Source: Methanobacteriota archaeon (GTDB lineage Archaea; JAADCQ01; Methanopyri; Methanopyrales; Methanopyraceae). Taken from it: a stretch of DNA of 64,000 nt. Positions within the stretch are counted from its first letter, which is position 1. Each line of letters opens with the position of its first letter. Made by a program: the position numbers and the translations under genes. The stretch is from assembly GCA_027064425.1 (NCBI GenBank), contig JAMOPO010000015.1:160001-224000 (forward strand), written 5' to 3'. Positions 23,645 to 63,174 of the stretch are shown here, piece by piece. The notes under the pieces were generated by a model that was not told the origin of the DNA, did no database searches, and saw only the letters and a list, made by a program, of their open reading frames with translations.

Positions 23645-23753
23645 TGGTGCCGCGGCCGGGATTTGAACCCGGGCCCACCGGATGGCCGAGGCCCCGCGGA
23701 CGACCCGCGGGGCCTCTTCAGTCCGGCGCTCTCCCAGGCTGAGCTGCCGCGGC
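23645..23753 (-). tRNA. tRNA-Phe(GAA), C8, with a 32-nt BHB intron at 37/38 (23684-23715)
   Basis: Cloverleaf; BHB central helix CTGA/TCGG with AGA and CCA bulges; encoded CCA. Confidence 0.95.
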
Positions 23754-52049: not shown

Positions 52050-54935
52050 ATGAGAGTCGCGCTCGCCGTCCTGCTCGCCGCGGTGATCGCGGTCGCGGTG
52101 CCGGGGCCCGCGGGTGCTCTGGGCCCGTTCCTTAAGGGCCTGAAAATCGACTACCCCATCGACTGGCCGCGCTACTCGTTCTGGACGCACTCCGAGGTAA
52201 GGGTCTGTAGCAACGCAGTCGCCTACGACATCAAGCCCGTGGACTTCGGGTACGAGGTGTTCCAGGCGAACGTGGGCGTGCCCGTGTCCAAGGTTCCGGC
52301 CAGGGGAGTACTGATCGGGTGGTACGAGAAGGGGGAGCGGGGCGCTCCGGGCACCCTCGGCCTCACGTTCCTGAACCCGCAAGGATACCGGGTGGACGTG
52401 CTCCGAATCCCCGTTCAGTCCGGGCCGGCTGACCGCACCTGCCTCGGACTGGCCTACGATCGGGGTGCCCGGACGGCCCTCGTGGCCTGGACCTCAGGAG
52501 ACGCGATCTGGTTGATGGCCGTGCGCCTGGGCAGCGTGGCCTACACCGTCCGCACCGAGTCGGGAACGGTCAGGATGACGATGCCCATCGTCGAGGCCGG
52601 GCCGATCCTGACGAGGGTCGACGGCGGCAGATTCCCGGGACTCGCCGCGTACAGGGACTTCAGGCAGGTTCAGGTGGTAAGGCTCGGTGACAACCAGTTC
52701 CTGGTGATGTTCACCGGCCGGAACCCGAGCAAGCCGGGCGAGTACGGCCGGGACCTGCTGTACCTGGTCGCCACCGTCGACTGGAGCCGCCGAGACATCA
52801 ACGTGAAGGTCGGTGGCCAGGACCTGGGCTTCCAGAGCGTGGTGGCGTACCGCGTCAAGCTGATTCGACTCAACCCGCGCCCGAACGTGATCGGCCTCGC
52901 GTTCATAGGTCGGTGGAGGCAGGCTGAGGCCGGCGTCTGGTGGGTGACCCTGGGCTTTGACGGCCGCGGTTTGCGGATCATCGACTACCGGCGAATCAGC
53001 GACGACGAGTTCTACCTACCGCAGACACCGTACGCCCTGTTGGACTTCGCCGTCTGCGACCTGGGCGACAGGTACGTTGTCCTGGTGGTCTGGAACGACT
53101 CGCGGATACCTCACTTCGCGTGGCTGCTCGAGCGGTACCTCCGTTACAAGTACGGTAAAGGCGTCGAGGTGAAGCTGCCGCAGCACGACAAGCTCTGGAC
53201 ACTGTACGGGCAGCGCGTGGTCCTGCGTCGGGACGGCACCGTGGATGAAGCCACGCTGCTGAGGTCGGAGGGTGGGTTCCCGAAGAACTTCGAGGTGGGC
53301 TACCTGGCCCGGGCTGAGGTCTCGAAGTCAGAGGAGGGCGTTACCGTCAGCGTGGACACTGCCGAGATCGACTCCGTCACCGTCCTCACCTGCACGATCA
53401 ACGGGAAACCGTACTTCGTCGTGCACTACGCGGCGAACCTCAGGTGGAAGGACGTGGCTTACTGGGTTGATTACGCCTACCTCGGCTGGGGCTTCGAGAA
53501 GTCGGCACACGGGTACGACGTGTTCGCCACTCCCGTCCCGGCTGACCCGACGGTTCCTCCGTCGGTGATCCCGGAGATGGACGAGTGCAAAACGGGCCGG
53601 CAGGAGACCGAGGCCTACGTTCTGTACCCGGTGCACGTGGAGGGCAAAGCCGGCGTCCTGGTGAGGAGCGGCGGGACAGTCCACATCGACGCCTCAGGGC
53701 TCGCGATGGTGGCCGCGCCGACCGGCACGTACCTGCACCTGCACGACGTCATCCCGTACGTCGAAGTAACGTCGCCGGAGGGCTGGACCCTGGGGCGTAA
53801 GGGGGAGAAGACCCGCGCCGTCTGCATGAACCAGCTGAGCGTCCGGGCGGTCACGCTGCCGGACTCGCCGATCGCGTTCGAGGGATACCTCGAGGTCGAG
53901 AAGGAGTCCGAGACCGGTCCGAAGGTGAGCGGACCGCTCTACGTTCGTGTCTTCGTCCCAATGGTCGGCCCGCTGAAAGACCTGTACCGGGAGTGCTACG
54001 AGCTGGGCCTGCTCCCGGGCAGGATCATGTACGGGCTGCTGACGGACGATGTAGCGTACCAGCTGCAGCTGAAGTACGGAACGTACCAGGGCGAGTTCTA
54101 CGGCGTCGTCACCCTGACGGACGTCCTGGTCTGCGGGACGCTCGAGGCGAGACCGATCGTCATCGAGGATCACCCGTCGATCGTCCCGACGCACCTGCAG
54201 TACGACCTGATGGCCGGGGAGCCGCCCACCGGCCGGCTTGAGGTGTACTACACCACCGACTTCAAGGACGTCCTGCCGCCGGGCTCGGTCTTCCTCGTGA
54301 TGCTCAAGCAGGGGCAGCCCGTGTCGGCCGACTACTTCCTGCTGAAAGGGGGCGAGATCCTCAGCACGGAGGTCTCGATACCGCTCGCCGAGGCGCTGGC
54401 CAAGCTCATGGAGGCGGTGAAGAACGGGGTCCTCGATACGTCGAGGCTGCCCGCCTGCGCTAAGCGCGCCATCGAGGTGCTCGAGAGGCTGCCCAAGACG
54501 CGCATCGTCGAGGAGGCCATCAGCCTGCTGAAGGAGCTGCTCAACGCCCCACCCAACCTACTGCCCCAGACGTTCCGTCGGGTCCTGGGCCGGCTGATCG
54601 AGCTCACGCAGGGACAGTACGTCATCACGGCCTTCTTCCTACCGGCGGTCAGCGACGTCGAGGACCTGCCGCTGCCCGCCAGGCGCGATCAGCGCCTCTC
54701 GCGGGCGATCCACGAGATCGCGTACCTGGGCGCCACCAGCTGGGTGCCGCTGTACATGACCTGCGGGTCGGTTACCATCCGAGTCTCCGGCGGCACCGTG
54801 GTCGTCGCCAGCGGCCACCGCTCCACGCCGACGACCGGGCCCGGCCGCCCCGGTCAGGGTGTCAGGCCGTTCCAGCGGATCTCACCGGTGATCCTCCCGA
54901 TCGCGCCCCCGCGTGCGCGTCGTCGCCGCTCGTAG
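52050..54935 (+). CDS. Large secreted beta-rich hypothetical protein
   Basis: Signal peptide MRVALAVLLAAVIAVAVPGPAGA; C-terminal PVILPIAPPRARRRRS. Confidence 0.75.
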   Translation: MRVALAVLLAAVIAVAVPGPAGALGPFLKGLKIDYPIDWPRYSFWTHSEVRVCSNAVAYDIKPVDFGYEVFQANVGVPVSKVPARGVLIGWYEKGERGAPGTLGLTFLNPQGYRVDVLRIPVQSGPADRTCLGLAYDRGARTALVAWTSGDAIWLMAVRLGSVAYTVRTESGTVRMTMPIVEAGPILTRVDGGRFPGLAAYRDFRQVQVVRLGDNQFLVMFTGRNPSKPGEYGRDLLYLVATVDWSRRDINVKVGGQDLGFQSVVAYRVKLIRLNPRPNVIGLAFIGRWRQAEAGVWWVTLGFDGRGLRIIDYRRISDDEFYLPQTPYALLDFAVCDLGDRYVVLVVWNDSRIPHFAWLLERYLRYKYGKGVEVKLPQHDKLWTLYGQRVVLRRDGTVDEATLLRSEGGFPKNFEVGYLARAEVSKSEEGVTVSVDTAEIDSVTVLTCTINGKPYFVVHYAANLRWKDVAYWVDYAYLGWGFEKSAHGYDVFATPVPADPTVPPSVIPEMDECKTGRQETEAYVLYPVHVEGKAGVLVRSGGTVHIDASGLAMVAAPTGTYLHLHDVIPYVEVTSPEGWTLGRKGEKTRAVCMNQLSVRAVTLPDSPIAFEGYLEVEKESETGPKVSGPLYVRVFVPMVGPLKDLYRECYELGLLPGRIMYGLLTDDVAYQLQLKYGTYQGEFYGVVTLTDVLVCGTLEARPIVIEDHPSIVPTHLQYDLMAGEPPTGRLEVYYTTDFKDVLPPGSVFLVMLKQGQPVSADYFLLKGGEILSTEVSIPLAEALAKLMEAVKNGVLDTSRLPACAKRAIEVLERLPKTRIVEEAISLLKELLNAPPNLLPQTFRRVLGRLIELTQGQYVITAFFLPAVSDVEDLPLPARRDQRLSRAIHEIAYLGATSWVPLYMTCGSVTIRVSGGTVVVASGHRSTPTTGPGRPGQGVRPFQRISPVILPIAPPRARRRRS

Positions 54936-54962
54936 CACGAACCTTTTTTCAAAGCTGATTGA

Positions 54963-54995
54963 GTATTACTCTCAGCTCAACCCGTAATCTTTAAG
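54963..54995 (+). promoter_or_regulatory. NikR-like operator GTATTA-N16-TAATCT abutting a TATA-like TTTAAG
   Basis: Spacing and half-sites resemble NikR operators (E. coli GTATGA-N16-TCATAC); the right half-site is imperfect. Confidence 0.4.
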
Positions 54996-55036
54996 TCGCA
55001 ACCCAGGGCGCCGGCGTCGGGGGTGAGAGCACCTCG

Positions 55037-56782
55037 ATGAGAGCCCCCGCGCTGCTTCTCGTCCTAGCGTCCGTCCTGGTGGCAACCGGGGTTCCGGCCA
55101 GCGCGGCGTCGGAGCGGGACGTCAGCCAGTGCCTGCAGGATTGCATCAAGTGGCTGGTGGAGAACCAGTTCACGGAGCAGGACGTGGGCAAGTCGTGGAC
55201 GTTCGAGGATCCGGGCGGCACGTACCAGGGTGCCAGGTACGCGGTGCACTTCGCCACCGAGGAGAACGGGCAGCTGAAGGACCAGGGTCCGGCTAAGGAG
55301 GTGCTCCGAGTCGAGCAGTACGACGTGGGCGTGTGGCCGGCCACGTTCAAGGGCGACAACCGGATCATCGCGGTGAGGGCCAGCCAGTGCGCGTTTCGGG
55401 ACAAGTACGGCCTGGAGGCCGTGCAGGTGGGTAAGTACATCGCGGCGCTGGTGGACAGGTCCAAGCGCGTGATCTACGTGAAGCCGTCCAGCAAGTACCC
55501 GGGCGTGCTGTTCGGCGGCGAGCCGGCGTACTCGTCGACGAAGTTCGCCGTCCCGATGCTGGTTCTCGCGGTTAAGGAGGGCGTCAAGGATCCAGCCTTC
55601 AAGGAGGCCGTGAAGCGCGCCGTGAAGTGGGTGCTCACGGTCAACAAACCGCGCGGGTATTACTACCAGCGGTCGCTGGCGGCGATCCGCGAGAAGCTGG
55701 AGAAGGAGGGCAACCTCACGACCAGCATCGGCGGCGCGCTGTACTACTACGTGATTCCGCTGCTGCTGGGCCGCGAGCTGGGGATCGTGGACGACGACCT
55801 GTGGAACCAGTGCAAGGACCACGCGCTGTACATCCTGAGGCACGCGGTGCTGGCGCCGGAGGTGCACTGGAAGACGTGGGCCGAGTACCGGAACGTTCTC
55901 GTGATTGACGCGAAGGGCAAGCTGGCCTACTGGCTGAGGCAGAAGCGGAAGGAGGGTGAGTGGGTCAGCTACAGTCGGACGTACGACACCGCGGCGGCCG
56001 TGCTGGCGCTGGTGCACGCGATCAAGCTCGGGCTACTGAAGCCGGACGAGGAGGTTCAGATCGGTGAGGTGAAGGTCAAAGTCGGTGACCTGGTCCGGTA
56101 CGCGACGAACGCGCTGGTGAGGTTCTTCGTCGAGGGCTGCGGCAACCCGTGCTACCTGGAGAAGCAGGCGGTGGAGCAGGGAGTCTACTGGAAGTCGTAT
56201 TACTACCCGGTGAAGTACTCGTTCTACGCCCTGTGGGCGATCCGGGACGCGAGGGAGGCGGGGCTGCTCGGTGACTACGCGCGGAAGCACCTGAGCGTTG
56301 CGCTGCGGCGGTACGTGGGCTGGCTGGAGGGCATGCAGCTGGAGGGCAGGCCGGGGTACTTCCCGTACAACGAGTACATCCTGGGCTCGCCGGACTTCGC
56401 GAGCACCTGCGCCGCGCTGCTGGGCCTGTGCATGGCGGTAGAAATGGGACACCGTAGTCCGACAGCGATCGACCTGATCAAGAGGGTGGTTGACGCGCTG
56501 ATCAGCCAGTACAGGGACGCCAAGAAGCGGGGGCTGAAGTACCTATTCTACGTGCCGACGCCGGAGAGCAGGTACTACCTGTACATGTCCAGGTTCTTCG
56601 CGGACCGCAGCGTGAACGAGGTGGCGTTCGCGACCGCACACGCGGTGGCGGCGCTGGCCGCGGTGGAGAAGCTGCCGGCAGACGTTAAGAAGCAGGTTCT
56701 GAAGGGCAGGAAGGTGCCGGTGGCACCGGTAGTGATGGCGGCGGTGGCACTGCTGTTACTCAGGCGCCGCCTCCCCGCCTAA
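55037..56782 (+). CDS. Secreted alpha/alpha-barrel-like (prenyltransferase-repeat-like) protein with C-terminal anchor
   Basis: Signal peptide; repeats such as CIKWLVENQ, AVKWVL, GWLEGMQ, TAAAVLAL; tail PVAPVVMAAVALLLLRRR. Confidence 0.7.
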   Translation: MRAPALLLVLASVLVATGVPASAASERDVSQCLQDCIKWLVENQFTEQDVGKSWTFEDPGGTYQGARYAVHFATEENGQLKDQGPAKEVLRVEQYDVGVWPATFKGDNRIIAVRASQCAFRDKYGLEAVQVGKYIAALVDRSKRVIYVKPSSKYPGVLFGGEPAYSSTKFAVPMLVLAVKEGVKDPAFKEAVKRAVKWVLTVNKPRGYYYQRSLAAIREKLEKEGNLTTSIGGALYYYVIPLLLGRELGIVDDDLWNQCKDHALYILRHAVLAPEVHWKTWAEYRNVLVIDAKGKLAYWLRQKRKEGEWVSYSRTYDTAAAVLALVHAIKLGLLKPDEEVQIGEVKVKVGDLVRYATNALVRFFVEGCGNPCYLEKQAVEQGVYWKSYYYPVKYSFYALWAIRDAREAGLLGDYARKHLSVALRRYVGWLEGMQLEGRPGYFPYNEYILGSPDFASTCAALLGLCMAVEMGHRSPTAIDLIKRVVDALISQYRDAKKRGLKYLFYVPTPESRYYLYMSRFFADRSVNEVAFATAHAVAALAAVEKLPADVKKQVLKGRKVPVAPVVMAAVALLLLRRRLPA

Positions 56783-56802
56783 ACGCCCCCGCTAGGGGGT
56801 TC

Positions 56803-59800
56803 TTGATGAAGGACGTCCGACGCCTCGCCCTCCCTCTAGCGCTCCTCCTAGTTCACCTCCCGGTCCAGACGGAAGCGTCCCCGCTGCAGGACTCTCCCCA
56901 CCACCTCGTCGTCGTGACCGGGTACTGGTCCCTGGGGCTACCGGCCGCCAAGGCTGCCTCCGGACTGCCCGTCACGGTCGTCGTGGAGGACGCCGTGTCT
57001 CACGGATTCGTCTCACCCGACGCGGTCAAGGAGGCGATCCTGCGCGCCGACACGATCCTACTAGTTCACACGAGGAGCAACCCGATCCTCGGCACGATCC
57101 TAGCGAACCTGCCCGCCGGGAAGCGGGTGTTCGTGTACAACAACGTGCTCCCGAAGCCGCAGGACGCCCGGAACCTGGCGGACGTCACGGTGGAGTGGGA
57201 GGGCGTCACGATACCGCTCTCCCTGTACGTCCAGTCCCGCTCTGAACGCAACCTCCGGAGCCTATTCGAGTACCTGCTGACCGGGCGACCGGGCCCGTTC
57301 CACCCGTTCGACGGCTGGGTCGAGGGCTACGACTACGAGCGCGACGAGATCGTGCGGCCCGAGGATCCCGGTCCGGAGGAGCTCCGGGAGGCGCTCTCCC
57401 GGTACGGATCCGCGCCCGTCTACCTGGGAGATCGGGCGTACCCGCGGTGGTTCGTCGAGCTCCTTAAGTCCCGGCTGCCCGACCTGATCCGAGAGGTACT
57501 CTCGCACGAGCCTCGGCGCGACGGCCCGGCGGTCCTGATCGTCTGCGACTCAACCGCGCTGGAGTGCGGGTGGACGGCCCCGCTGCGAGAGCTCTGCCGG
57601 GCGCTGGTCAAGCGCGGGCTGGCGCCGCTGGTGCTGGCGCTGCACTACGACCTGCTGGACGGGGACCTGGAGGACGTCCTCCGGGCCCTGCGCGAGACGG
57701 TGAGGCGGCTCAACGTCCAGGCCGTGATCTTCCTGGCCGGCTTCTTCCGCATGCGCTCCCCGGACTCCCCGGAGGTGAAGCTGCTTGAGGAGCTCGGTGT
57801 GCCCGTGGTTAAGGCGATCAGGCTCGGGCACACGATGACGGAGTGGCAAGCGTACTGGCGGATGCCCAGCGGCATGGACTGGTCCGCGCTGTACCACATC
57901 GTGATCCCGGAGAACCTGGGCCTGATCGAGGGCATCCCGATCTCGGTCCGCGAGTGGCGGACGGACGGTCCGAGAACCCTGCTGGGCGGCGTCTGGCGCG
58001 CGGACGTGCCCGTCCCGCCCATGGTCGAGCTGCTGGCGAGCCGGGTGGCCGCGTGGGTCAAGCTCCGGCTGAAGCCGAACGCGGAGAAGCGGGTGGTCAT
58101 CCTCTACTGGGCGGCCGAGCCGGGCAAGGAGGGAGTGGGTGTCGCCTCCTCGCTCGACGTCTCGGCCTCGATCGTCAACTTCCTCGCCTGGCTGCTGGCG
58201 CGCGGGTACCGGGTCGAAATCCCGCGGGAGCTCGCCGAGTACCTCCGGCGGTTCGCGGACGAGGTTCCCCGGGACTCCGAGCTGTACCGGGCGCTGAAGT
58301 CCGGCTCGATCGAGGAGGTGGTCAGGGCGATTCGAGGCACGCTCCTCGAGATCAACCGGCTGGAGGTGGAGGCGGAGGAACTCGCGGAGAAGGGTGGGTG
58401 GAGGCGGGCGCTCGAGCTCTACGCGCGGGCTTACCGCCTCATGCGGCCCCTCGCCGACGCGCTCGGCCGGTTGATGGTGGAGGAGGGCTCCAACATCGGG
58501 GCCTACATCCTGCGGCGCGTGCGGGCCGAGGACGGCAGGCTCGTGCTGGAGCTGCTGGCCTACGAGAACGGCAGGTTCGTGCGGAGGGAGTGGGAGGTCC
58601 GCTACGTTCATCTCCTGCCGCTCGACGAGTACCTGCGCTGGTACCGTACCCTGCCGGAGGAGGCCAGGCTGTGCGTGGAGAAAGGCATCTTCGGGTACCT
58701 GGAGGCGCTGCTGAGGTTCGTGAAGCGGTACGGTCCGGTGGTGGATTCGCTGAAGCTCCGGGCGCTGACGAACGGGTTGAGGTCGCTGGTGGCGTACGTC
58801 GAGGGCCACCTGCAGTACCTCCAGCTGTCCGACCGGGAGCGTCGGGAGTTCCTGGGCGACCTCCGGTCGCTGGTGGAGGACGTCGTCTCCGCCCTGACCG
58901 ACCCGAACCGGGTGGATGAGGCGCTGCACCGGTGCGAGGAGCTGCACCGGAAGTGGTCGCGGGTGGAGGCGCTGTACGGGTGGTTCACGGGGTGGGGTCC
59001 GCCCGAACGCTCGCGTTACCTCGTCGAAATTGACGGGAAGAAGTACTTCGTGATTCGCGGGATCCGGTTCGGGAACGTGCTGGTCGCGCCGCAGCCGGCG
59101 CGCGGGTACTACGTGGGCATCAGCGTCGCTTACCACTCCACGATCCTGCCGCCCTGTCACTATTACCTCGCCTGTTACTACTACTTCACCCGCGTTTTCC
59201 GCGCGGACGTGATCGTGAACACGGGCAAGCACGGCACGTACGAGTGGCTCCCGTACAAACCCCTCTTCATGTCCTGGTGGGACTTCCCGCAGATCTGCAT
59301 CCAGGACGTTCCACAGGTGTACCCGTATTACGTGGCCGACCCCTCCGAGGCGCTGGTCGCGAAGCGGCGGGGCTGGGCCGTCCTGGTTAACTACCTGCCG
59401 GAGTCGCTGGCCAGGTGCGAGCTGGAGGACGAGTGGGGCGAGCTACTCGAGCTCCTGCGAGAGTACCTGTCCTCGGGCCTGAGCGTGTACCGGGCGCGGA
59501 TCCTGGAGCTCGTCAAGAAGACGCGGGCGTACGAGCTCCTGAACCTCAGCTCGCTGGAGGAGTTCGAGCGGGATTTTGACGGCAACTGCGCCCGGCTCTA
59601 CTTCCTGCTCCACGACCTGGAGGAGCACGAGGTGGTTCCGGTCGGGCTGCACGTGTTCGGGATGCCGCCGTTGGGTGAGGATCCCGTCGAGACGCTGGCC
59701 AGCTTCGCCGCGAAAATCCTGGTGAACGAGACGCTCGGCGCGCTGGACTACCCGCGCGCCCTGGAGCTCTGTCGGGAGGTGATCGAGCGGCCGGAGGCGA

Positions 59801-62800
59801 GGGAGTCCGACGAGCTGCACCGGGAGGCGGCGCGGGTCGTGGAGCTGCTCTTCCAGAGCGCGCGGCTCGAGCGGGAGAACTTCCTCCGCGCGCTCGAGGG
59901 CCGCTACGTTCCACCAGGGTACGCCTCGAGCCCGTTCAAGGAGATCGACGCGCTGCCCACGGGCAGGAACTCCTGCATGTTCGACCCTCGCAAGTGGCCG
60001 GACTGGATCTCGATCAACCCCGCGTACGCGGTGGCGATCCCCCTCCGACTGGTCGCGAAGAAGGTCGTCGCGTTCGACTGGGCGACGGATAACATCAACA
60101 CGCGGGCGCTGCCGATCGCGGTGCAAATGCTGCTGCTGGGCGTTCTCCCACGCCGGAACTCTGAGGGGGTCGTCGTCGGCGTCGACCCGTGCGCGCCGCT
60201 CCGCCCGAACGCCGTGGCGGGAACGCGCCGATACGGCCAGGTCCTGATCACGGGCAGGCTCGTTCGCATGGATCTCTTGGGTTCGGGCACGGTGCGCCTG
60301 GTGGTCGCACCGCCCGGCGGCGGGACCGAGATCGAGGTGCGAGCCCCGCTCGACTCCCTCCCGTTCCCGCTGTTCGTGGGCGACCACGTGACGATCCTGG
60401 GCACGCTGGTTCCGCCCGAGCGGAGGGTGGAGCTGCTGGACGCCGAGGTGCTGAGATCGTACGAGGGAGGGTACCTGACGCCCACCGAGCTCGCGGCCGT
60501 GGGAAGCGTGGCCTCGGGCCCCGTCGTGGTGAAGGGAACGGTCAAAGAGGTCAGCGGGAACTTCCTGGTGGTTACGGACGGGACGACGGACGTCCGGTGC
60601 TGCGTCGCGGGTCCCGTGCGGGTGAGGCCGGGCGAGACGGTCTTCGTGCGCGGGCGACCGCTGATCCAAGAGGAGCCGCCGATCGTGTCCGCGACGCTCG
60701 TGCTCCGGGGCCGGCTGACGCGGATCACGGACGTGATCGTGCTCGGCACCTCCTGCTTCCGGGACGTGTTCGCCCACAACATCCTCGCGGAGCTGTTCCT
60801 GGGCCGCGCGGCGGCCATTTTAGCGGCGGAGCCGTACCTGGCGGCGGAGCTCGGTGTTCCCTCCTTGGTCGGAGCGCGGGTGAAGGGGGCGAACGTCCCC
60901 GGGCTCGTGCTGGAGCGACTGCGGGAGATCGTGGGCCGGTTGCGGCAGGGTCGGTGGGAGAACCCGCTGCACGAGACCGTGCTGCGGGTCTACGAGGCGG
61001 CGCTGGACCTGGCCTCCTCCATGGGTAGGGAGAGGTTGGCGAGGCTGCTGTGGGAGGGGTTGAAGTCGCTCTACGCTCAGGTTCAGGAGGCGTGCTCGCA
61101 GCAGGGGCTGAGCTTCGACTCCGTGCTCTCTACGGCCAGGGAGCTGGCGTATCTCGCGCCACCGAGCGAGAACTACGCGTTCCTGGACTGGGCGGCGGTC
61201 TACCTGGCGCTACTCGCGTGCCGGGAGCGTGAAGTCAGCGCGCCGCTCCGGGCTTGGGTGGAGCAGGTCCGGAGGATCCCGGAGGCGGATTACCCGCTCC
61301 TGGCGGCGATCGACGTGTTCTGTCAGGCGCCCGGTGACTACACGAACGTGATCGGGAAGACGATCGAGTCGGGCGCGTTCCTGCTGGAGGAGCGGGTTAA
61401 GCTGGCCCTGACCTGGATCTCCGCGATGAGCTACCTGTACGGGCCGCGGTACTGGGGCGTCAGCGTGCCGCTGCTGCTCGCGCTGAACCTGGCGGTCCCG
61501 GACCACACGCTCCACACGATGGTCTCCTCGGACGAGAAGGCGACGTTCTTCTACGACGACTGCATCTACGCGTTCGAAGGCGGGATGCGGCTGGCCGTCG
61601 AGGCCGTGAACGGGCTGGCGCCCGAGCAGGAGCCGGAGATCGGCATGCTCGTGCTCAACCTGCGCCACGCCGCCCTCGGGACCTACACCGGCGGCGACTA
61701 CTCTCGAACGGTGTACCGGCTGGCCCACGTCGCCGAGCTGATCGCCCGCGCCAACCCGAGCCTGGCCCCGTGGCTCCGCGACCTGGCGTCCAGCCTGGCG
61801 GCCGGTAACCTGATGGCGGCGATGATCGCGAGCAACCTGACCCTGCTGATGCAGCCGTCGACCGAGGCGGAGCTGCGGGCGCTGCGCGGCGACCTGACGG
61901 CCGCGTACCGGTACGCCCTGCTGATGCCGTTCCAGTCCTACGCCTGGTACGACCTCATGCGCACGGTCTTCAACCCGCTGTATCTGCGCGGCAAGCGGTT
62001 TCACGGCTACTCAGGTGCGGTGGACCTACTCAAGCGACTCGACTTCCTGATCACCGGCTGGAGCACCCTGACGCCGGGCCTGCTCGGCTGGAACGGCATC
62101 TTCCGCCGCGTCGCCCGGGTTCTGGTCGAGAACAGGTCCTGGCTGGCGCGTTACGCCCCGGAGAGTCTGCTGTCCGTCTCGGTCAAGCTCCTGGTGATCG
62201 CGTTCGATCGGGCCCGGTACGGGCTGGTGAGCGGGGAGCTGCTGCGCAGCCCCGAGTTCGTGCAGCTGGTCCGCGAGGTCATCGTGCCCGAGCTGCTTGA
62301 GGGCGAGCTGTGCTGCTGCCCGGCCGTGTGCGGTAACCCAACGATTCAGGAGCGGTTCCTGCAGGCGCTCGCGGCCTACGAGTCCATCATCCCGCAGGTG
62401 CGTCCGGCCATCGCGGTCTTCACGACCAACTACGTGGGCCGGCCGATCCCAGGCCGGACCGCCAACGTCACCACCGCCCCGGGAGCGGCGCCGGCCCCGA
62501 CCACCGTCGGCCCGACGCCCGCATCGTCCCTCGCACCGACCGCGGCTCCGGCGACGACACCGGCGGTCAGCCCCGCCGCCCTCCCCGCGCCCAGCCCGGC
62601 GCCGCGGCGGGTCTTGAACGCCCAGGCGCCGAGTGCCACCACGGCACCGGTCTCAACATCTACCTCGGGCACCCCGGCGACGAGCGGTACGCGGTCCATC
62701 GCCAGCACCGCCGCGGCCCCCTCAGCCAGCGCGCCGGTCAGCCCGATGACCGGAGCCAGAACCGCCGTCCGGGTGGCCAGAGCGGTGGCCGCCGTCGCGG

Positions 62801-63174
62801 AGGCGTCGGTGAGGGCGCCGGTCCGGTCCCTCGCAACCGCCGTCCGGGGTACCGGAGGGGGAGCCTCGATCTCGACCGTGGGTGCGGCGCTCAAGTCGGT
62901 CGGGGCCGGTTCCGAGCGCGCTGGGGGCGGGAAGTCCGGGGCGTCGGTGAGGGCGGTTCAGGCGGGCGCCGCGTCTCGCGGCGGTGCGTCCGCGCCGGCT
63001 CAGGCTCGGGCTCGGTCGGCTCGGGTCATGGTGAGGTCCTCGCCGGCGACCCCGGCCTCCCAAGCGCCACGCTGGGTCCTTTACGCGCTCATTGCGGCCC
63101 TGCTGATGTCGGTGCTGGCGGTAAGCGTGGGGTACTCCCGGAGGGCTGGGATGTCAAGGACTCCAGGGTGGTAA
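56803..63174 (+). CDS. CobN/Mg-chelatase subunit H family protein, surface-anchored, with OB-fold insertion
   Basis: LRLKPNAEKRVV, FGNVLVAPQP, GKHGTYEWLP, AKRRG, LPTGRN, FRDVF, GYSGA motifs; signal peptide, Ala/Pro/Thr/Ser linker, C-terminal TM. Confidence 0.85.
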   Translation: MMKDVRRLALPLALLLVHLPVQTEASPLQDSPHHLVVVTGYWSLGLPAAKAASGLPVTVVVEDAVSHGFVSPDAVKEAILRADTILLVHTRSNPILGTILANLPAGKRVFVYNNVLPKPQDARNLADVTVEWEGVTIPLSLYVQSRSERNLRSLFEYLLTGRPGPFHPFDGWVEGYDYERDEIVRPEDPGPEELREALSRYGSAPVYLGDRAYPRWFVELLKSRLPDLIREVLSHEPRRDGPAVLIVCDSTALECGWTAPLRELCRALVKRGLAPLVLALHYDLLDGDLEDVLRALRETVRRLNVQAVIFLAGFFRMRSPDSPEVKLLEELGVPVVKAIRLGHTMTEWQAYWRMPSGMDWSALYHIVIPENLGLIEGIPISVREWRTDGPRTLLGGVWRADVPVPPMVELLASRVAAWVKLRLKPNAEKRVVILYWAAEPGKEGVGVASSLDVSASIVNFLAWLLARGYRVEIPRELAEYLRRFADEVPRDSELYRALKSGSIEEVVRAIRGTLLEINRLEVEAEELAEKGGWRRALELYARAYRLMRPLADALGRLMVEEGSNIGAYILRRVRAEDGRLVLELLAYENGRFVRREWEVRYVHLLPLDEYLRWYRTLPEEARLCVEKGIFGYLEALLRFVKRYGPVVDSLKLRALTNGLRSLVAYVEGHLQYLQLSDRERREFLGDLRSLVEDVVSALTDPNRVDEALHRCEELHRKWSRVEALYGWFTGWGPPERSRYLVEIDGKKYFVIRGIRFGNVLVAPQPARGYYVGISVAYHSTILPPCHYYLACYYYFTRVFRADVIVNTGKHGTYEWLPYKPLFMSWWDFPQICIQDVPQVYPYYVADPSEALVAKRRGWAVLVNYLPESLARCELEDEWGELLELLREYLSSGLSVYRARILELVKKTRAYELLNLSSLEEFERDFDGNCARLYFLLHDLEEHEVVPVGLHVFGMPPLGEDPVETLASFAAKILVNETLGALDYPRALELCREVIERPEARESDELHREAARVVELLFQSARLERENFLRALEGRYVPPGYASSPFKEIDALPTGRNSCMFDPRKWPDWISINPAYAVAIPLRLVAKKVVAFDWATDNINTRALPIAVQMLLLGVLPRRNSEGVVVGVDPCAPLRPNAVAGTRRYGQVLITGRLVRMDLLGSGTVRLVVAPPGGGTEIEVRAPLDSLPFPLFVGDHVTILGTLVPPERRVELLDAEVLRSYEGGYLTPTELAAVGSVASGPVVVKGTVKEVSGNFLVVTDGTTDVRCCVAGPVRVRPGETVFVRGRPLIQEEPPIVSATLVLRGRLTRITDVIVLGTSCFRDVFAHNILAELFLGRAAAILAAEPYLAAELGVPSLVGARVKGANVPGLVLERLREIVGRLRQGRWENPLHETVLRVYEAALDLASSMGRERLARLLWEGLKSLYAQVQEACSQQGLSFDSVLSTARELAYLAPPSENYAFLDWAAVYLALLACREREVSAPLRAWVEQVRRIPEADYPLLAAIDVFCQAPGDYTNVIGKTIESGAFLLEERVKLALTWISAMSYLYGPRYWGVSVPLLLALNLAVPDHTLHTMVSSDEKATFFYDDCIYAFEGGMRLAVEAVNGLAPEQEPEIGMLVLNLRHAALGTYTGGDYSRTVYRLAHVAELIARANPSLAPWLRDLASSLAAGNLMAAMIASNLTLLMQPSTEAELRALRGDLTAAYRYALLMPFQSYAWYDLMRTVFNPLYLRGKRFHGYSGAVDLLKRLDFLITGWSTLTPGLLGWNGIFRRVARVLVENRSWLARYAPESLLSVSVKLLVIAFDRARYGLVSGELLRSPEFVQLVREVIVPELLEGELCCCPAVCGNPTIQERFLQALAAYESIIPQVRPAIAVFTTNYVGRPIPGRTANVTTAPGAAPAPTTVGPTPASSLAPTAAPATTPAVSPAALPAPSPAPRRVLNAQAPSATTAPVSTSTSGTPATSGTRSIASTAAAPSASAPVSPMTGARTAVRVARAVAAVAEASVRAPVRSLATAVRGTGGGASISTVGAALKSVGAGSERAGGGKSGASVRAVQAGAASRGGASAPAQARARSARVMVRSSPATPASQAPRWVLYALIAALLMSVLAVSVGYSRRAGMSRTPGW

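What the first reader, a model, noticed from the sequence alone, without database searches (positions are those of the whole stretch)
54963..63174. Surface-anchored CobN-like chelatase locus under a NikR-like operator: candidate metal/tetrapyrrole scavenging system
Seen: a 2123-aa CobN/ChlH protein with a signal peptide, an Ala/Pro/Thr stalk and a C-terminal TM. It follows a secreted, anchored alpha-barrel-like protein by 20 nt, and no AAA+ chelatase partner (ChlI/D, CobS/T) is in the window. Upstream, GTATTA-N16-TAATCT abuts the TATA-like box. Established: CobN/ChlH bind tetrapyrroles and normally need cytoplasmic ATPases, and methanogens need Ni (F430, hydrogenases) and Co. Inference: extracellular capture or de-chelation of F430/corrinoids, induced on Ni limitation.
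Basis: partly seen in the sequence, partly recalled or inferred. Interest (0 to 1): 0.7.

Follow-up and report, generated by a model that had tools for sequence, protein, structure and literature searches.

The report
Surface-anchored CobN-like chelatase module in Methanopyrus
A heat-loving methane-producing archaeon encodes a giant relative of the cobalt and magnesium chelatases that is built to sit outside the cell next to a secreted barrel-shaped partner protein, probably to scavenge a trace metal such as nickel and not to make vitamin B12.

Summary
Window 56806-63174 encodes a 2122-aa CobN/ChlH/HmuS-superfamily protein (Pfam 1.9e-136; body model matches HmuS, CobN and ChlH at E 1e-20). It has a signal peptide, a 210-aa Ala/Ser/Pro/Thr stalk and one C-terminal TM helix. 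All eight orthogroup members keep this layout. The gene 23 nt upstream encodes a secreted, anchored (alpha/alpha)6-toroid protein known only from Methanopyrus.

New here:
- The genome (Methanopyrus, 1.54 Mb) has five such exported CobN paralogs, each beside an alpha/alpha-toroid gene.
- This orthogroup keeps the superfamily catalytic His (H810). It has Cys where HmuS has His-1209, and a lineage-specific tandem OB-fold insert.
- The "operator" is better read as GTATTAC-N14-GTAATct. GTATTAC is the heptamer repeated at the nikR promoter (conserved in 5 of 6 genomes), upstream of cooT, and at a paralogous module. As a pair the site is no rarer than in shuffled sequence, and orthologous promoters do not align.

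Closest known is the Bacteroidota haem dechelatase HmuS, which is membrane-anchored and has no AAA+ partner. Published proteomics shows a CobN paralog and NikR induced under nickel limitation in Methanothermobacter.

Exported CobN-likes are common in Methanobacteriales, and this scan noted them before on other genomes. Function is untested. Verdict: new variant of a known kind.

The parts
54936..55036 (+). Intergenic promoter region between the upstream secreted-protein gene and the toroid gene. It holds an oligo-T run (54944-54949), the candidate operator, a TATA-like box and a Shine-Dalgarno-like GGTGA (55022-55026).
   Evidence: Sequence read. The crude gene caller marks 54936-55036 as non-coding.
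54963..54990 (+). Candidate NikR-type operator GTATTAC-N14-GTAATct (half-sites 54963-54969 and 54984-54990).
   Evidence: Two mismatches to GTRTTAC-N13/14-GTAAYAC, one of 4 such sites in the genome. The consensus is taken from PMC545781. The same heptamer sits at the nikR promoter, at cooT and at the paralogous module.
54989..54996 (+). TATA-like box CTTTAAGT, about 40 nt before the ATG.
   Evidence: The paralogous module has ATTATAAGTCG at a like distance. No transcription start data.
55037..56782 (+). Secreted, C-terminally anchored (alpha/alpha)6-toroid protein, 581 aa (P0002).
   Evidence: signal peptide, C-terminal hydrophobic segment plus RRR. (fold). (relatives only in Methanopyrus: 9 and 7 hits).
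56806..63174 (+). Exported CobN/ChlH/HmuS-superfamily protein, 2122 aa from the ATG (P0001 numbering counts the preceding TTG as residue 1).
56806..56877 (+). Predicted signal peptide (residues 2-25, ...QTEA|SP).
   Evidence: Orthologs show the same kind of N-terminus. Hydropathy test 8 of 8.
59230..59232 (+). Codon of His-810 in NTGKHG, the superfamily-invariant histidine (His-538 of HmuS).
   Evidence: Alignments. Role of the HmuS residue from PMC12583661, sections 14 and 22.
60238..60708 (+). Lineage-specific insert of two OB-fold beta-barrels (about residues 1146-1302). It is followed by a helical insert to about residue 1500.
   Evidence: Secondary structure of the model. Weak Foldseek hits to LysRS OB, MalK and ModE Mop domains, E 0.01-0.03. 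Pfam tRNA_anti-codon E 0.0044, below cut-off. Insert occupancy is 370-397 residues in the orthogroup against 64-130 in 12 other aligned proteins.
61561..61563 (+). Codon of Cys-1587 in YDDCIYAFEGG. This position aligns with Asp in CobN. Read across to the HmuS motif LSLDHxxEFMGG, it corresponds to His-1209.
   Evidence: invariant in 8 of 8. HmuS motif from PMC12583661, section 14. The HmuS correspondence is by motif register, not a direct alignment.
62428..63057 (+). Ala/Ser/Pro/Thr/Gly-rich stalk (residues 1876-2085).
   Evidence: Composition.
63076..63132 (+). C-terminal transmembrane helix (residues 2092-2110), followed by a basic tail ending in Trp.
   Evidence: The same tail type is in the four other exported paralogs and in most orthologs.
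52050..54935 (+). Upstream 961-aa secreted protein of no known family (P0003). It is probably a separate transcription unit and is not part of the conserved module.
   Evidence: The gene upstream of the orthologous toroid gene is a different one in G001/G002 and G003.

Best explanation
This is a two-gene envelope module. The CobN-family protein is exported by its signal peptide. It is held at the outer face of the cytoplasmic membrane by a C-terminal helix and raised on a low-complexity stalk. Its chelatase body, with the catalytic-type His-810 in a cavity that has acquired several cysteines, handles a metal or metal-macrocycle outside the cell without an AAA+ ATPase. The haem dechelatase HmuS of Bacteroidota works in this way.

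The co-transcribed secreted alpha/alpha-toroid protein is its dedicated helper, either for binding or presenting the ligand or for docking. Methanopyrus has five such chelatase-plus-toroid pairs.

The most likely purpose is trace-metal acquisition, with nickel first and cobalt second. The released or captured metal would then be taken up by separate transporters: CbiM-type, or the unlinked DUF2162-MotA/ExbB-DUF2149 set. Transcription is probably repressed by Ni-NikR through the GTATTAC element next to the TATA box.

Shown: family, fold, export architecture, five-fold pairing, motif conservation, and recurrence of the DNA heptamer at nikR and cooT.

Inferred: location outside the cell, catalysis, substrate, direction of the reaction, partnership with the toroid, and NikR control.
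For: Family and fold:
- Pfam PF02514, 1.9e-136.
- PDB sequence hits CobN 9uk9 4e-50, ChlH 4zhj 4e-46, HmuS 9d26 6e-31.
- Model of residues 700-1880 (pLDDT 79) matches HmuS, CobN and ChlH at E 1e-20 to 1e-17, TM about 0.5.

Not the biosynthetic CobN:
- The best NCBIfam equivalog scores 280 bits against a cut-off of 822.
- A separate 1171-aa paralog without a signal peptide lies at C15:261189-264704.

Export: signal peptide, stalk and a single C-terminal TM with a basic tail, kept in 8 of 8 orthogroup proteins.

Pairing: all 5 exported paralogs have an adjacent alpha/alpha-toroid gene. Four have Pfam SQHop_cyclase_C at 1.8e-10, 4.4e-13, 1.9e-4 and 8.6e-5, and this one is assigned by fold.

Catalytic-type motifs kept: GKHG (H810), PQPARGY, YHS..PP.H.Y, LPTGRN, GLHVFG, FEGG. 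Orthogroup-only cysteines C785, C791, C1058 and C1587 are invariant in 8 of 8.

Precedents:
- HmuS is membrane-anchored, needs no AAA+ partner, and loses activity on H538A (PMC12583661; sections 14, 22, 23 read).
- hmuS is followed by MotA/ExbB and DUF2149 genes (PMC11681262, table passage).
- In three other methanogen genomes, exported CobN-likes sit next to DUF2162, with MotA/ExbB in two of them.
- This genome has DUF2162-MotA/ExbB-DUF2149 at C27.
- 96 of 120 listed Methanobacteriales homologs pass both hydropathy tests.

Nickel link:
- In M. marburgensis, CobN1 and NikR1 are high only under Ni limitation (PMC12350162, passage).
- nikR is present.
- The tandem GT(G/A)TTAC-N3-GTATTAC lies about 20 nt after the TATA box of nikR in 5 of 6 genomes.
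- GTRTTAC sits at the same spot before cooT in 3 of 6 genomes.
- GTAATAC is in the paralogous module's promoter in 3 of 3 genomes examined.
Against: - No experiment and no expression data exist for this organism.
- No dedicated signal-peptide predictor was available. Topology rests on hydropathy, charge and conservation.
- The first His of the HxGxHG motif is Asn, and the HmuS His-1209 / CobN Asp position is Cys. The cavity may therefore do different chemistry, or none.
- The HmuS haem ligands Met-79 and His-254 were not examined.
- The MotA/ExbB-type module is not linked to any of the five paralogs here.
- Operator: the second half-site matches 5 of 7. There are 4 paired sites with 2 mismatches or fewer in the genome against 5-10 in three shuffles and 6 and 8 in two more.
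- The heptamer occurs 38 times genome-wide, about what base composition predicts (my hand estimate is 37).
- The promoters of the two divergently arranged paralogs, C15:85670 and C3:61404, lack it.
- Orthologous promoters in G001, G002 and G003 carry only half-site-like words in other arrangements.
- Which M. marburgensis paralog is 'CobN1', and whether it is an exported one, could not be settled because supplements are closed.
Confidence: 0.55

Rival explanations
1. It is a corrinoid-handling enzyme: cobalt or cobamide salvage at the cell surface, like the B12-riboswitch-linked exported CobN relatives of bacteria. On this view it is not a nickel device.
For: The best sequence matches are to CobN. 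Methanogens need corrinoids for methyl transfer, as stated in PMC3087415 (passage). Five paralogs could divide several substrates between them. Earlier scan notes describe B12-riboswitch-controlled exported CobN relatives in bacteria (unchecked).
Against: No cobalamin riboswitch or other Rfam family lies in the window apart from tRNAs. The only regulatory lead points to the nickel regulator.
Confidence: 0.15
2. It is a non-catalytic surface protein that reuses the chelatase fold as a scaffold, for metal or ligand binding only, for wall interaction or for adhesion. The toroid protein would be an unrelated neighbour or a structural partner.
For: Active-site motifs are altered: Asn for the first His, Cys for Asp/His. 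Large lineage-specific inserts are present. The five paralogs have diverged strongly, 24-27% identity in the body for three of them. The PMC12350162 passage calls the induced proteins 'possible metal-chelating proteins'.
Against: The superfamily-invariant His and six other cavity motifs are invariant across 60-65%-identical orthologs. The chelatase-toroid pairing is kept five times.
Confidence: 0.15
3. It is the ordinary cobaltochelatase subunit CobN of cobalamin biosynthesis, as annotated in public records.
For: Public annotation of all orthologs reads 'cobaltochelatase subunit CobN'. There is a Pfam family match.
Against: It scores far below every NCBIfam CobN or BchH equivalog cut-off. It has a signal peptide, a stalk and a C-terminal anchor. 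There is no AAA+ partner in the window. A separate cytoplasmic-looking paralog exists. PMC3087415 states that methanogens follow the anaerobic route with CbiX (passage).
Confidence: 0.03
4. The GTATTAC element is not a NikR site. It would be a promoter-core word or a chance match, and the module would be expressed independently of nickel.
For: The paired site is not enriched over shuffles. The heptamer count matches the composition expectation. TATA boxes of the orthologous promoters themselves read GTATTAAT or ATATTAAT. The cbiM promoter's conserved TTAATAC is its TATA box.
Against: The element lies about 20 nt downstream of a separate TATA box at nikR and cooT, and there it varies only G/A across species. 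Of 10 heptamer-bearing segments among 797 called non-coding, 4 belong to nikR, cooT and two exported-CobN modules.
Confidence: 0.45

Closest known systems
HmuS haem dechelatase of Bacteroidota (B. thetaiotaomicron, PDB 9d26; hmuYRSTUV operon)
   Same: Same superfamily and body fold: Foldseek E 1.2e-20, top hit. Both are membrane-tethered and have no AAA+ ATPase partner. The invariant His of the GxHG loop is kept. Both serve a metal-acquisition context. The genome also holds the MotA/ExbB plus DUF2149 genes that follow hmuS.
   Different: - The anchor is C-terminal, after a cleavable signal peptide and a stalk. HmuS has a predicted N-terminal anchor.
- Cys stands at the His-1209 position.
- It has a tandem OB and helical insert.
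- There are no hmuY or hmuR genes, and no outer membrane.
- The motor genes are unlinked.
- The partner is an alpha/alpha-toroid protein.
- Sequence identity is only about 15% in the structural alignment.
- The substrate is unknown, and no cytochrome- or haem-related role is evident.
CobN of the aerobic cobaltochelatase CobNST (PDB 7c6o, 9uk9) and ChlH of Mg-chelatase (4zhj)
   Same: Pfam family PF02514. Conserved motifs ARGY, PPxHxY, GKHG, LPTGRN, GLHVFG, FEGG. Fold match E 1e-20 to 1e-17.
   Different: It is exported. It scores below all equivalog cut-offs. There is no ChlI/D or CobS/T partner nearby. It is about 900 residues longer, through inserts, a stalk and an anchor.
Exported CobN-like proteins of Methanobacteriales (all annotated 'cobaltochelatase subunit CobN'; for example the 1486-aa M. 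marburgensis protein, cluster of P0061)
   Same: Signal peptide plus C-terminal TM architecture: 96 of 120 listed pass both tests. Methanogen host. There is a published Ni-limitation response of a CobN paralog in that genus (PMC12350162 passage).
   Different: - About 25% identity in the body.
- The examples examined carry CARDB, DUF3344 or CarboxypepD_reg N-terminal domains.
- They sit beside DUF2162 and MotA/ExbB, not beside a toroid gene.
- They lack the Cys substitutions and the OB insert.
NikR operators (E. coli GTATGA-N16-TCATAC; delta-proteobacterial GTGTTAC-N13/14-GTAACAC, PMC545781)
   Same: Two 7-nt half-sites 14 nt apart next to the core promoter. The first half-site is one purine change from GTGTTAC. 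nikR is present in the genome.
   Different: The second half-site matches only 4 of 7 to GTAACAC, or 5 of 7 to GTAATAC. At the organism's own nikR and cooT promoters the element is a direct tandem or a single copy, not an inverted pair.

Membership tests
CobN/ChlH/HmuS class I chelatase superfamily (Pfam PF02514) | Significant match to the family profile | tested here: met
   E 1.9e-136, 457 bits against a cut-off of 24.5, three stretches.
CobN/ChlH/HmuS class I chelatase superfamily (Pfam PF02514) | Multi-domain 'body' fold enclosing a central cavity | tested here: met
   AF2 model of residues 700-1880 (pLDDT 79). Foldseek 9d26 1.2e-20, 7c6o 1.4e-20, ChlH 1e-18 to 1e-15, TM about 0.45-0.50. 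The head and neck (residues 26-700) were not modelled.
CobN/ChlH/HmuS class I chelatase superfamily (Pfam PF02514) | Superfamily-invariant His in the H-x-G-x-H-G loop (HmuS His-538) | tested here: met
   N-T-G-K-H810-G. The second His is invariant in 8 of 8 orthologs and the first His is Asn.
Cobaltochelatase CobN proper (NCBIfam TIGR02257 and PRK equivalogs) | Score above the equivalog cut-off | tested here: not met
   Best score is 280 bits against a cut-off of 822. All 9 CobN/BchH models are below cut-off.
Cobaltochelatase CobN proper (NCBIfam TIGR02257 and PRK equivalogs) | Cytoplasmic protein working with the AAA+/VWA partners CobS/T or ChlI/D | tested here: not met
   Signal peptide and C-terminal anchor. 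No PF01078 or PF13519 match in the window. A single ChlD-like frame lies on contig C27. Functional dependence is not testable here.
HmuS haem dechelatase family | His-1209 within LSLDHxxEFMGG, facing His-538 | tested here: not met
   The motif reads YDDCIYAFEGG, with Cys-1587 at the corresponding register. The cytoplasmic paralog has DLDHYYEFLGG. The register to HmuS was inferred through CobN and the printed motif, not from a direct alignment.
HmuS haem dechelatase family | Head/neck haem site Met-79 / His-254 and the Met-rich insertion | not tested
   The N-terminal 700 residues were neither aligned to HmuS nor modelled.
HmuS haem dechelatase family | Operon with hmuT, hmuU (MotA/ExbB) and hmuV (DUF2149) | tested here: not met
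   The neighbours are the toroid gene upstream and a convergent YdjM gene downstream. DUF2162-MotA/ExbB-DUF2149 exists once, on contig C27.
NikR-regulated promoter | nikR gene in the genome | tested here: met
   PF08753, E 3.9e-25, at C15:59697-59918 with an RHH N-terminus.
NikR-regulated promoter | Inverted pair of half-sites about 27-28 bp overall, overlapping the core promoter | tested here: inconclusive
   GTATTAC-N14-GTAATct matches 12 of 14 positions of GTRTTAC-N14-GTAAYAC. It is not rarer than in shuffles. The half-site is shared with nikR, cooT and the paralog module. The arrangement is not conserved in orthologous promoters.
NikR-regulated promoter | Ni-dependent binding and repression | not testable with these tools
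   Needs EMSA or footprinting, or expression data.
Class II terpene cyclase / squalene-hopene cyclase (for the toroid protein P0002) | (alpha/alpha)6 toroid fold | tested here: met
   VIA Z 23.7 (rmsd 3.8, 325 aligned) to 1w6k, and Z 22-23 to SHC, drimenyl-PP synthase and GH88/105. Foldseek E 2.5e-4.
Class II terpene cyclase / squalene-hopene cyclase (for the toroid protein P0002) | Catalytic DxDD motif and a family profile match | tested here: not met
   No Pfam or NCBIfam hit. There is no D-x-D-D in the translation, only VDDDL (read). A shared fold does not show a shared function.

The most novel reading that the evidence does not exclude
Methanopyrus carries a five-fold expanded extracellular metal-harvesting system not described in print. 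Each unit pairs a surface chelatase-fold enzyme with a secreted alpha/alpha-toroid ligand-binding protein. The unit studied here has a cysteine-lined cavity (C785, C791, C1058, C1587 around H810) and a tandem OB insert. It would be specialised to strip or capture nickel from environmental metallo-tetrapyrroles (F430 or Ni-porphyrin debris) or other chelates, at around 100 C, without ATP, under Ni-NikR repression.
Probability: 0.15. Interest if true: 0.8.

Novelty: new variant of a known kind. Interest (0 to 1): 0.55.

Why it matters
Methanogens have a very high nickel demand (F430, hydrogenases, CODH). How they obtain nickel from sulfidic, metal-sequestering habitats is an open question.

The HmuS paper states that the role of the many archaeal CobN/HmuS homologs is unclear (PMC12583661, section 23). 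The nickel-limitation proteome of M. marburgensis flags a 'CobN' as induced, without explanation (PMC12350162 passage).

This locus gives a concrete, testable candidate: an exported chelatase-fold enzyme with a dedicated secreted partner and a candidate nickel-responsive operator. It comes from a genus with a cultured member.

It also shows that hundreds of archaeal 'cobaltochelatase subunit CobN' annotations are probably wrong as to pathway and cellular location.

Tried and rejected
- Complex prediction of the toroid protein (residues 25-556) with the chelatase N-terminal 27-480 gave no verdict: score 0.00, mark 0.32, controls not run. It says nothing either way.
- The paired NikR-box scan of the genome (inverted, everted and direct arrangements) gave no enrichment over shuffles. 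Two of the four inverted hits are inside long ORFs, C57:154402 and C27:205929 (GC 0.69); the latter was not inspected further.
- The everted 1-mismatch hit at C52:185478 lies at the end of a TruA-like ORF.
- The same motif scan on loci of three other methanogen genomes found only isolated half-sites.
- The cbiM promoter's conserved TTAATAC looks like its TATA box, so it was not counted as an operator.
- Sequence searches for relatives of the toroid protein found none outside Methanopyrus: word-index search 9 hits; HMMER over 1.84 billion representatives 7 hits; PDB sequences 0 hits at E up to 10.
- A transcobalamin-like reading of the toroid protein was considered. No such chain appeared in the Foldseek or VIA lists, which does not exclude it.
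- The 'phylum' genome search reached only the six Methanopyrus genomes. Wider sampling came from 'relatives', where 12 of 41 genomes had a CobN-family match.
- I could not determine which M. marburgensis paralog is 'CobN1'. The paper's supplements are closed.
- Literature searches for an exported archaeal CobN found no paper describing one: CobN + methanogen + signal peptide, 4 papers; Methanopyrus + CobN, 8; CobN + archaea + extracellular + paralogs, 10. I saw listings and abstract starts only, except for the papers cited elsewhere.
- Rodionov 2006 (nickel and cobalt transporters; PMC id recalled from memory) is not held.

Full report
**What is there**

The window is contig C15:160001-224000 of a 1.54-Mb, 67.8% G+C genome. 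The genome encodes methyl-coenzyme M reductase alpha twice. The nearest relatives of its proteins are named Methanopyrus or Methanopyraceae.

ORF 56803-63174 starts TTG-ATG, and the database copy begins at the ATG and is 2122 aa. It matches Pfam CobN-Mg_chel at 1.9e-136 in three stretches. It matches solved CobN, ChlH and HmuS chains by sequence. Every NCBIfam CobN or BchH equivalog model is hit far below its cut-off, the best being 280 bits against 822. It belongs to the superfamily, but it is not the biosynthetic enzyme its orthologs are annotated as.

**Export architecture**

- The N-terminus MKDVRRLALPLALLLVHLPVQTEA|SP has the three regions of a Sec signal peptide.
- Residues 1876-2085 are Ala/Ser/Pro/Thr/Gly-rich.
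- The only strong hydrophobic helix is 2092-2110, followed by a basic tail ending in Trp.
- All eight orthogroup proteins pass a simple N- and C-terminal hydropathy test. Only 3 of 28 bacterial CobNs pass each test.
- No SignalP-type tool was available, so the outside location is an inference from these features and the positive-inside tail.

**The upstream gene**

- Gene 55037-56782 also has a signal peptide and a C-terminal hydrophobic segment plus RRR.
- It has no Pfam, NCBIfam or PDB sequence match.
- Only 9 and 7 relatives were found in the two large protein searches, all Methanopyrus-type.
- Its model (pLDDT 84) is an (alpha/alpha)6 toroid with Z 23.7 to oxidosqualene cyclase and similar scores to squalene-hopene cyclases and GH88/105 enzymes.
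- It lacks a DxDD motif (read).

**A repeated module**

The genome has about seven CobN-family genes:
- one cytoplasmic-looking gene of 1171 aa;
- one split into two divergently transcribed halves on contig C26;
- five with a signal peptide, a low-complexity tail and a C-terminal helix ending in Trp.

Each of the five has an alpha/alpha-toroid gene next to it. Four are recognisable by Pfam SQHop_cyclase_C (1.8e-10, 4.4e-13, 1.9e-4, 8.6e-5), and the fifth is the one studied here. The pairing is therefore a conserved design and not a chance neighbourhood.

The pair studied here is present in G001, G002, G003 and G005. It was not found in G004, which is 89% complete.

One paralog (C15:327107-333188) is in two frames in this assembly but intact in G001 and G002.

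**The chelatase body**

- A model of residues 700-1880 (44-row alignment, pLDDT 79) matches HmuS 9d26 (1.2e-20), M. tuberculosis CobN 7c6o (1.4e-20) and ChlH.
- Cavity motifs are kept: PQPARGY, YHS..PP.H.Y, GKHG, LPTGRN, GLHVFG, FEGG.
- His-810 is the histidine that the HmuS paper calls strictly conserved across the superfamily. Its H538A substitution abolishes de-chelation (PMC12583661, sections 14, 22).
- The orthogroup differs in specific ways. The first His of HxGxHG is Asn.
- Cysteines appear at 785, 791 and 1058, and at 1587. That last position aligns with Asp of CobN and, by motif register, with His-1209 of HmuS. All four are invariant in 8 of 8.
- An insertion of about 300 residues carries two OB-fold barrels and a helical segment: 370-397 residues in the orthogroup against 64-130 in the 12 other proteins checked. 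Only weak OB-type hits support the fold assignment.

**Context elsewhere**

- The flanking genes in the window are housekeeping genes: primase large subunit, IGPS, aspartate-semialdehyde dehydrogenase and YdjM.
- No ChlI or VWA match lies in the window. One ChlD-like frame is on C27.
- In a sample of 41 archaeal genomes, 12 have CobN-family matches.
- In three non-Methanopyrus genomes I inspected, large CobN-likes with a signal peptide and a C-terminal helix sit beside DUF2162, and in two of them also beside MotA/ExbB.
- One of those genomes is Methanothermobacter-like: 84% identity to an M. tenebrarum protein, with pseudomurein-binding repeats next door.
- Of 120 listed Methanobacteriales homologs, 96 pass both hydropathy tests.
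- hmuS of P. gingivalis is followed by a hypothetical gene, a MotA/ExbB gene and a DUF2149 gene (PMC11681262).
- This Methanopyrus genome has DUF2162-MotA/ExbB-DUF2149 once, unlinked, on C27.
- The exported archaeal CobN-likes thus look like relatives of the HmuS system. The Methanopyrus ones differ by their toroid partner.

**The operator**

The sequence is GTATTAC (54963-54969), then 14 nt, then GTAATCT (54984-54990), with CTTTAAGT overlapping its end.

Evidence that weakens it:
- It has two mismatches to GTRTTAC-N13/14-GTAAYAC, a degenerate form of the delta-proteobacterial NikR consensus (PMC545781).
- Only four such sites exist in the genome, but shuffled genomes give 5-10. The pair alone is therefore not significant.
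- The two divergent paralog promoters lack the element.
- The orthologous promoters of this module do not align. They show GTAACAT-N14-GTATTAA or ATATTAA (G001, G002), or GTAACAC plus ATATTAC (G003).

Evidence that strengthens it:
- The nikR gene has GTATTAC-caa-GTATTAC about 20 nt downstream of its TATA box. Five of six genomes keep GT(G/A)(T/C)TA(C/T)-N3-GTATTA(C/A) there.
- A CooT nickel-chaperone gene (PF10133, 3.4e-14) has GTATTAC at the same distance from its TATA box. G004 and G005 have GTGTTAC at that spot, and G001, G002 and G003 do not.
- The promoter of the paralogous toroid-chelatase module has GTAATAC in all three genomes examined.
- With a crude gene caller, 10 of 797 non-coding segments carry the heptamer. 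Four of them are nikR, cooT and the two modules, and about three look like missed coding sequence.

I put NikR control at roughly even odds.

**Published anchors**

- HmuS is a membrane-bound, AAA+-independent haem dechelatase. Its authors state that the use of the many archaeal homologs is unclear (PMC12583661, section 23).
[quoted passage not shown] I could not tell which paralog that is, because supplements are closed.
- Three literature searches found no description of exported archaeal CobN proteins.
- This scan has noted surface-anchored CobN-likes on other genomes before, with similar readings. I reached mine before seeing those notes, and they are not independent evidence.

**Verdict**

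It is a new variant of a known kind. The distinguishing features are the five-fold chelatase-toroid pairing, the cysteine-substituted cavity and the OB insert.

Noticed in passing
G000:C26:28882-32281 (outside the window; locus L048): A cytoplasmic-looking CobN is split into a C-terminal half on the minus strand and an N-terminal half on the plus strand, transcribed divergently. The short shared intergenic region holds GTACCAC-N14-GTAACAC, one of the four best NikR-like pairs in the genome. The split is also seen in G001, G002, G004 and G005.
   Followed up: partly
G000:C15:327107-333188 (outside the window; L047): The paralogous exported CobN gene is in two overlapping frames (1209 and 1233 aa) in this assembly. 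It is a single frame of 2032 aa in G002 and 1951 aa in G001. This is either a frameshift or an assembly error.
   Followed up: partly
window 52050-54935 (+): A 961-aa secreted protein with no Pfam or NCBIfam match. Its C-terminus (ISPVILPIAPP-RARRRRS) resembles the Pro-rich hydrophobic-plus-Arg tails of some toroid orthologs. The exported CobN paralogs instead all end in a TM helix plus a terminal Trp. A weak exosortase/archaeosortase-family match lies at C57:74083-74445.
   Followed up: no
window 23648-23753 (-): Rfam calls a tRNA of 106 nt that ARAGORN does not report. It may be an intron-containing tRNA.
   Followed up: no
G000:C52:53491-53667 (L085:491-667): A small CooT-family nickel-chaperone gene that my crude gene caller missed. 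GTRTTAC is conserved about 13 nt before its start codon in three of six genomes.
   Followed up: yes
G000:C26:9939-16108 (L086): A 411-aa His/Asp-rich protein with no family, a DUF1678 gene and hypF lie together. A GTAATAC sits in the 637-nt gap at C26:12178.
   Followed up: partly
G000:C27:24372-26550 (L084): A DUF2162 - MotA/ExbB - DUF2149 operon, the archaeal counterpart of hmuT?UV. It is unlinked to any CobN paralog in this genome.
   Followed up: yes
G000:C47:6489-7342: Several copies of a repeat of about 36 nt, separated by unique sequence. It looks like a CRISPR array next to an AT-rich leader.
   Followed up: no
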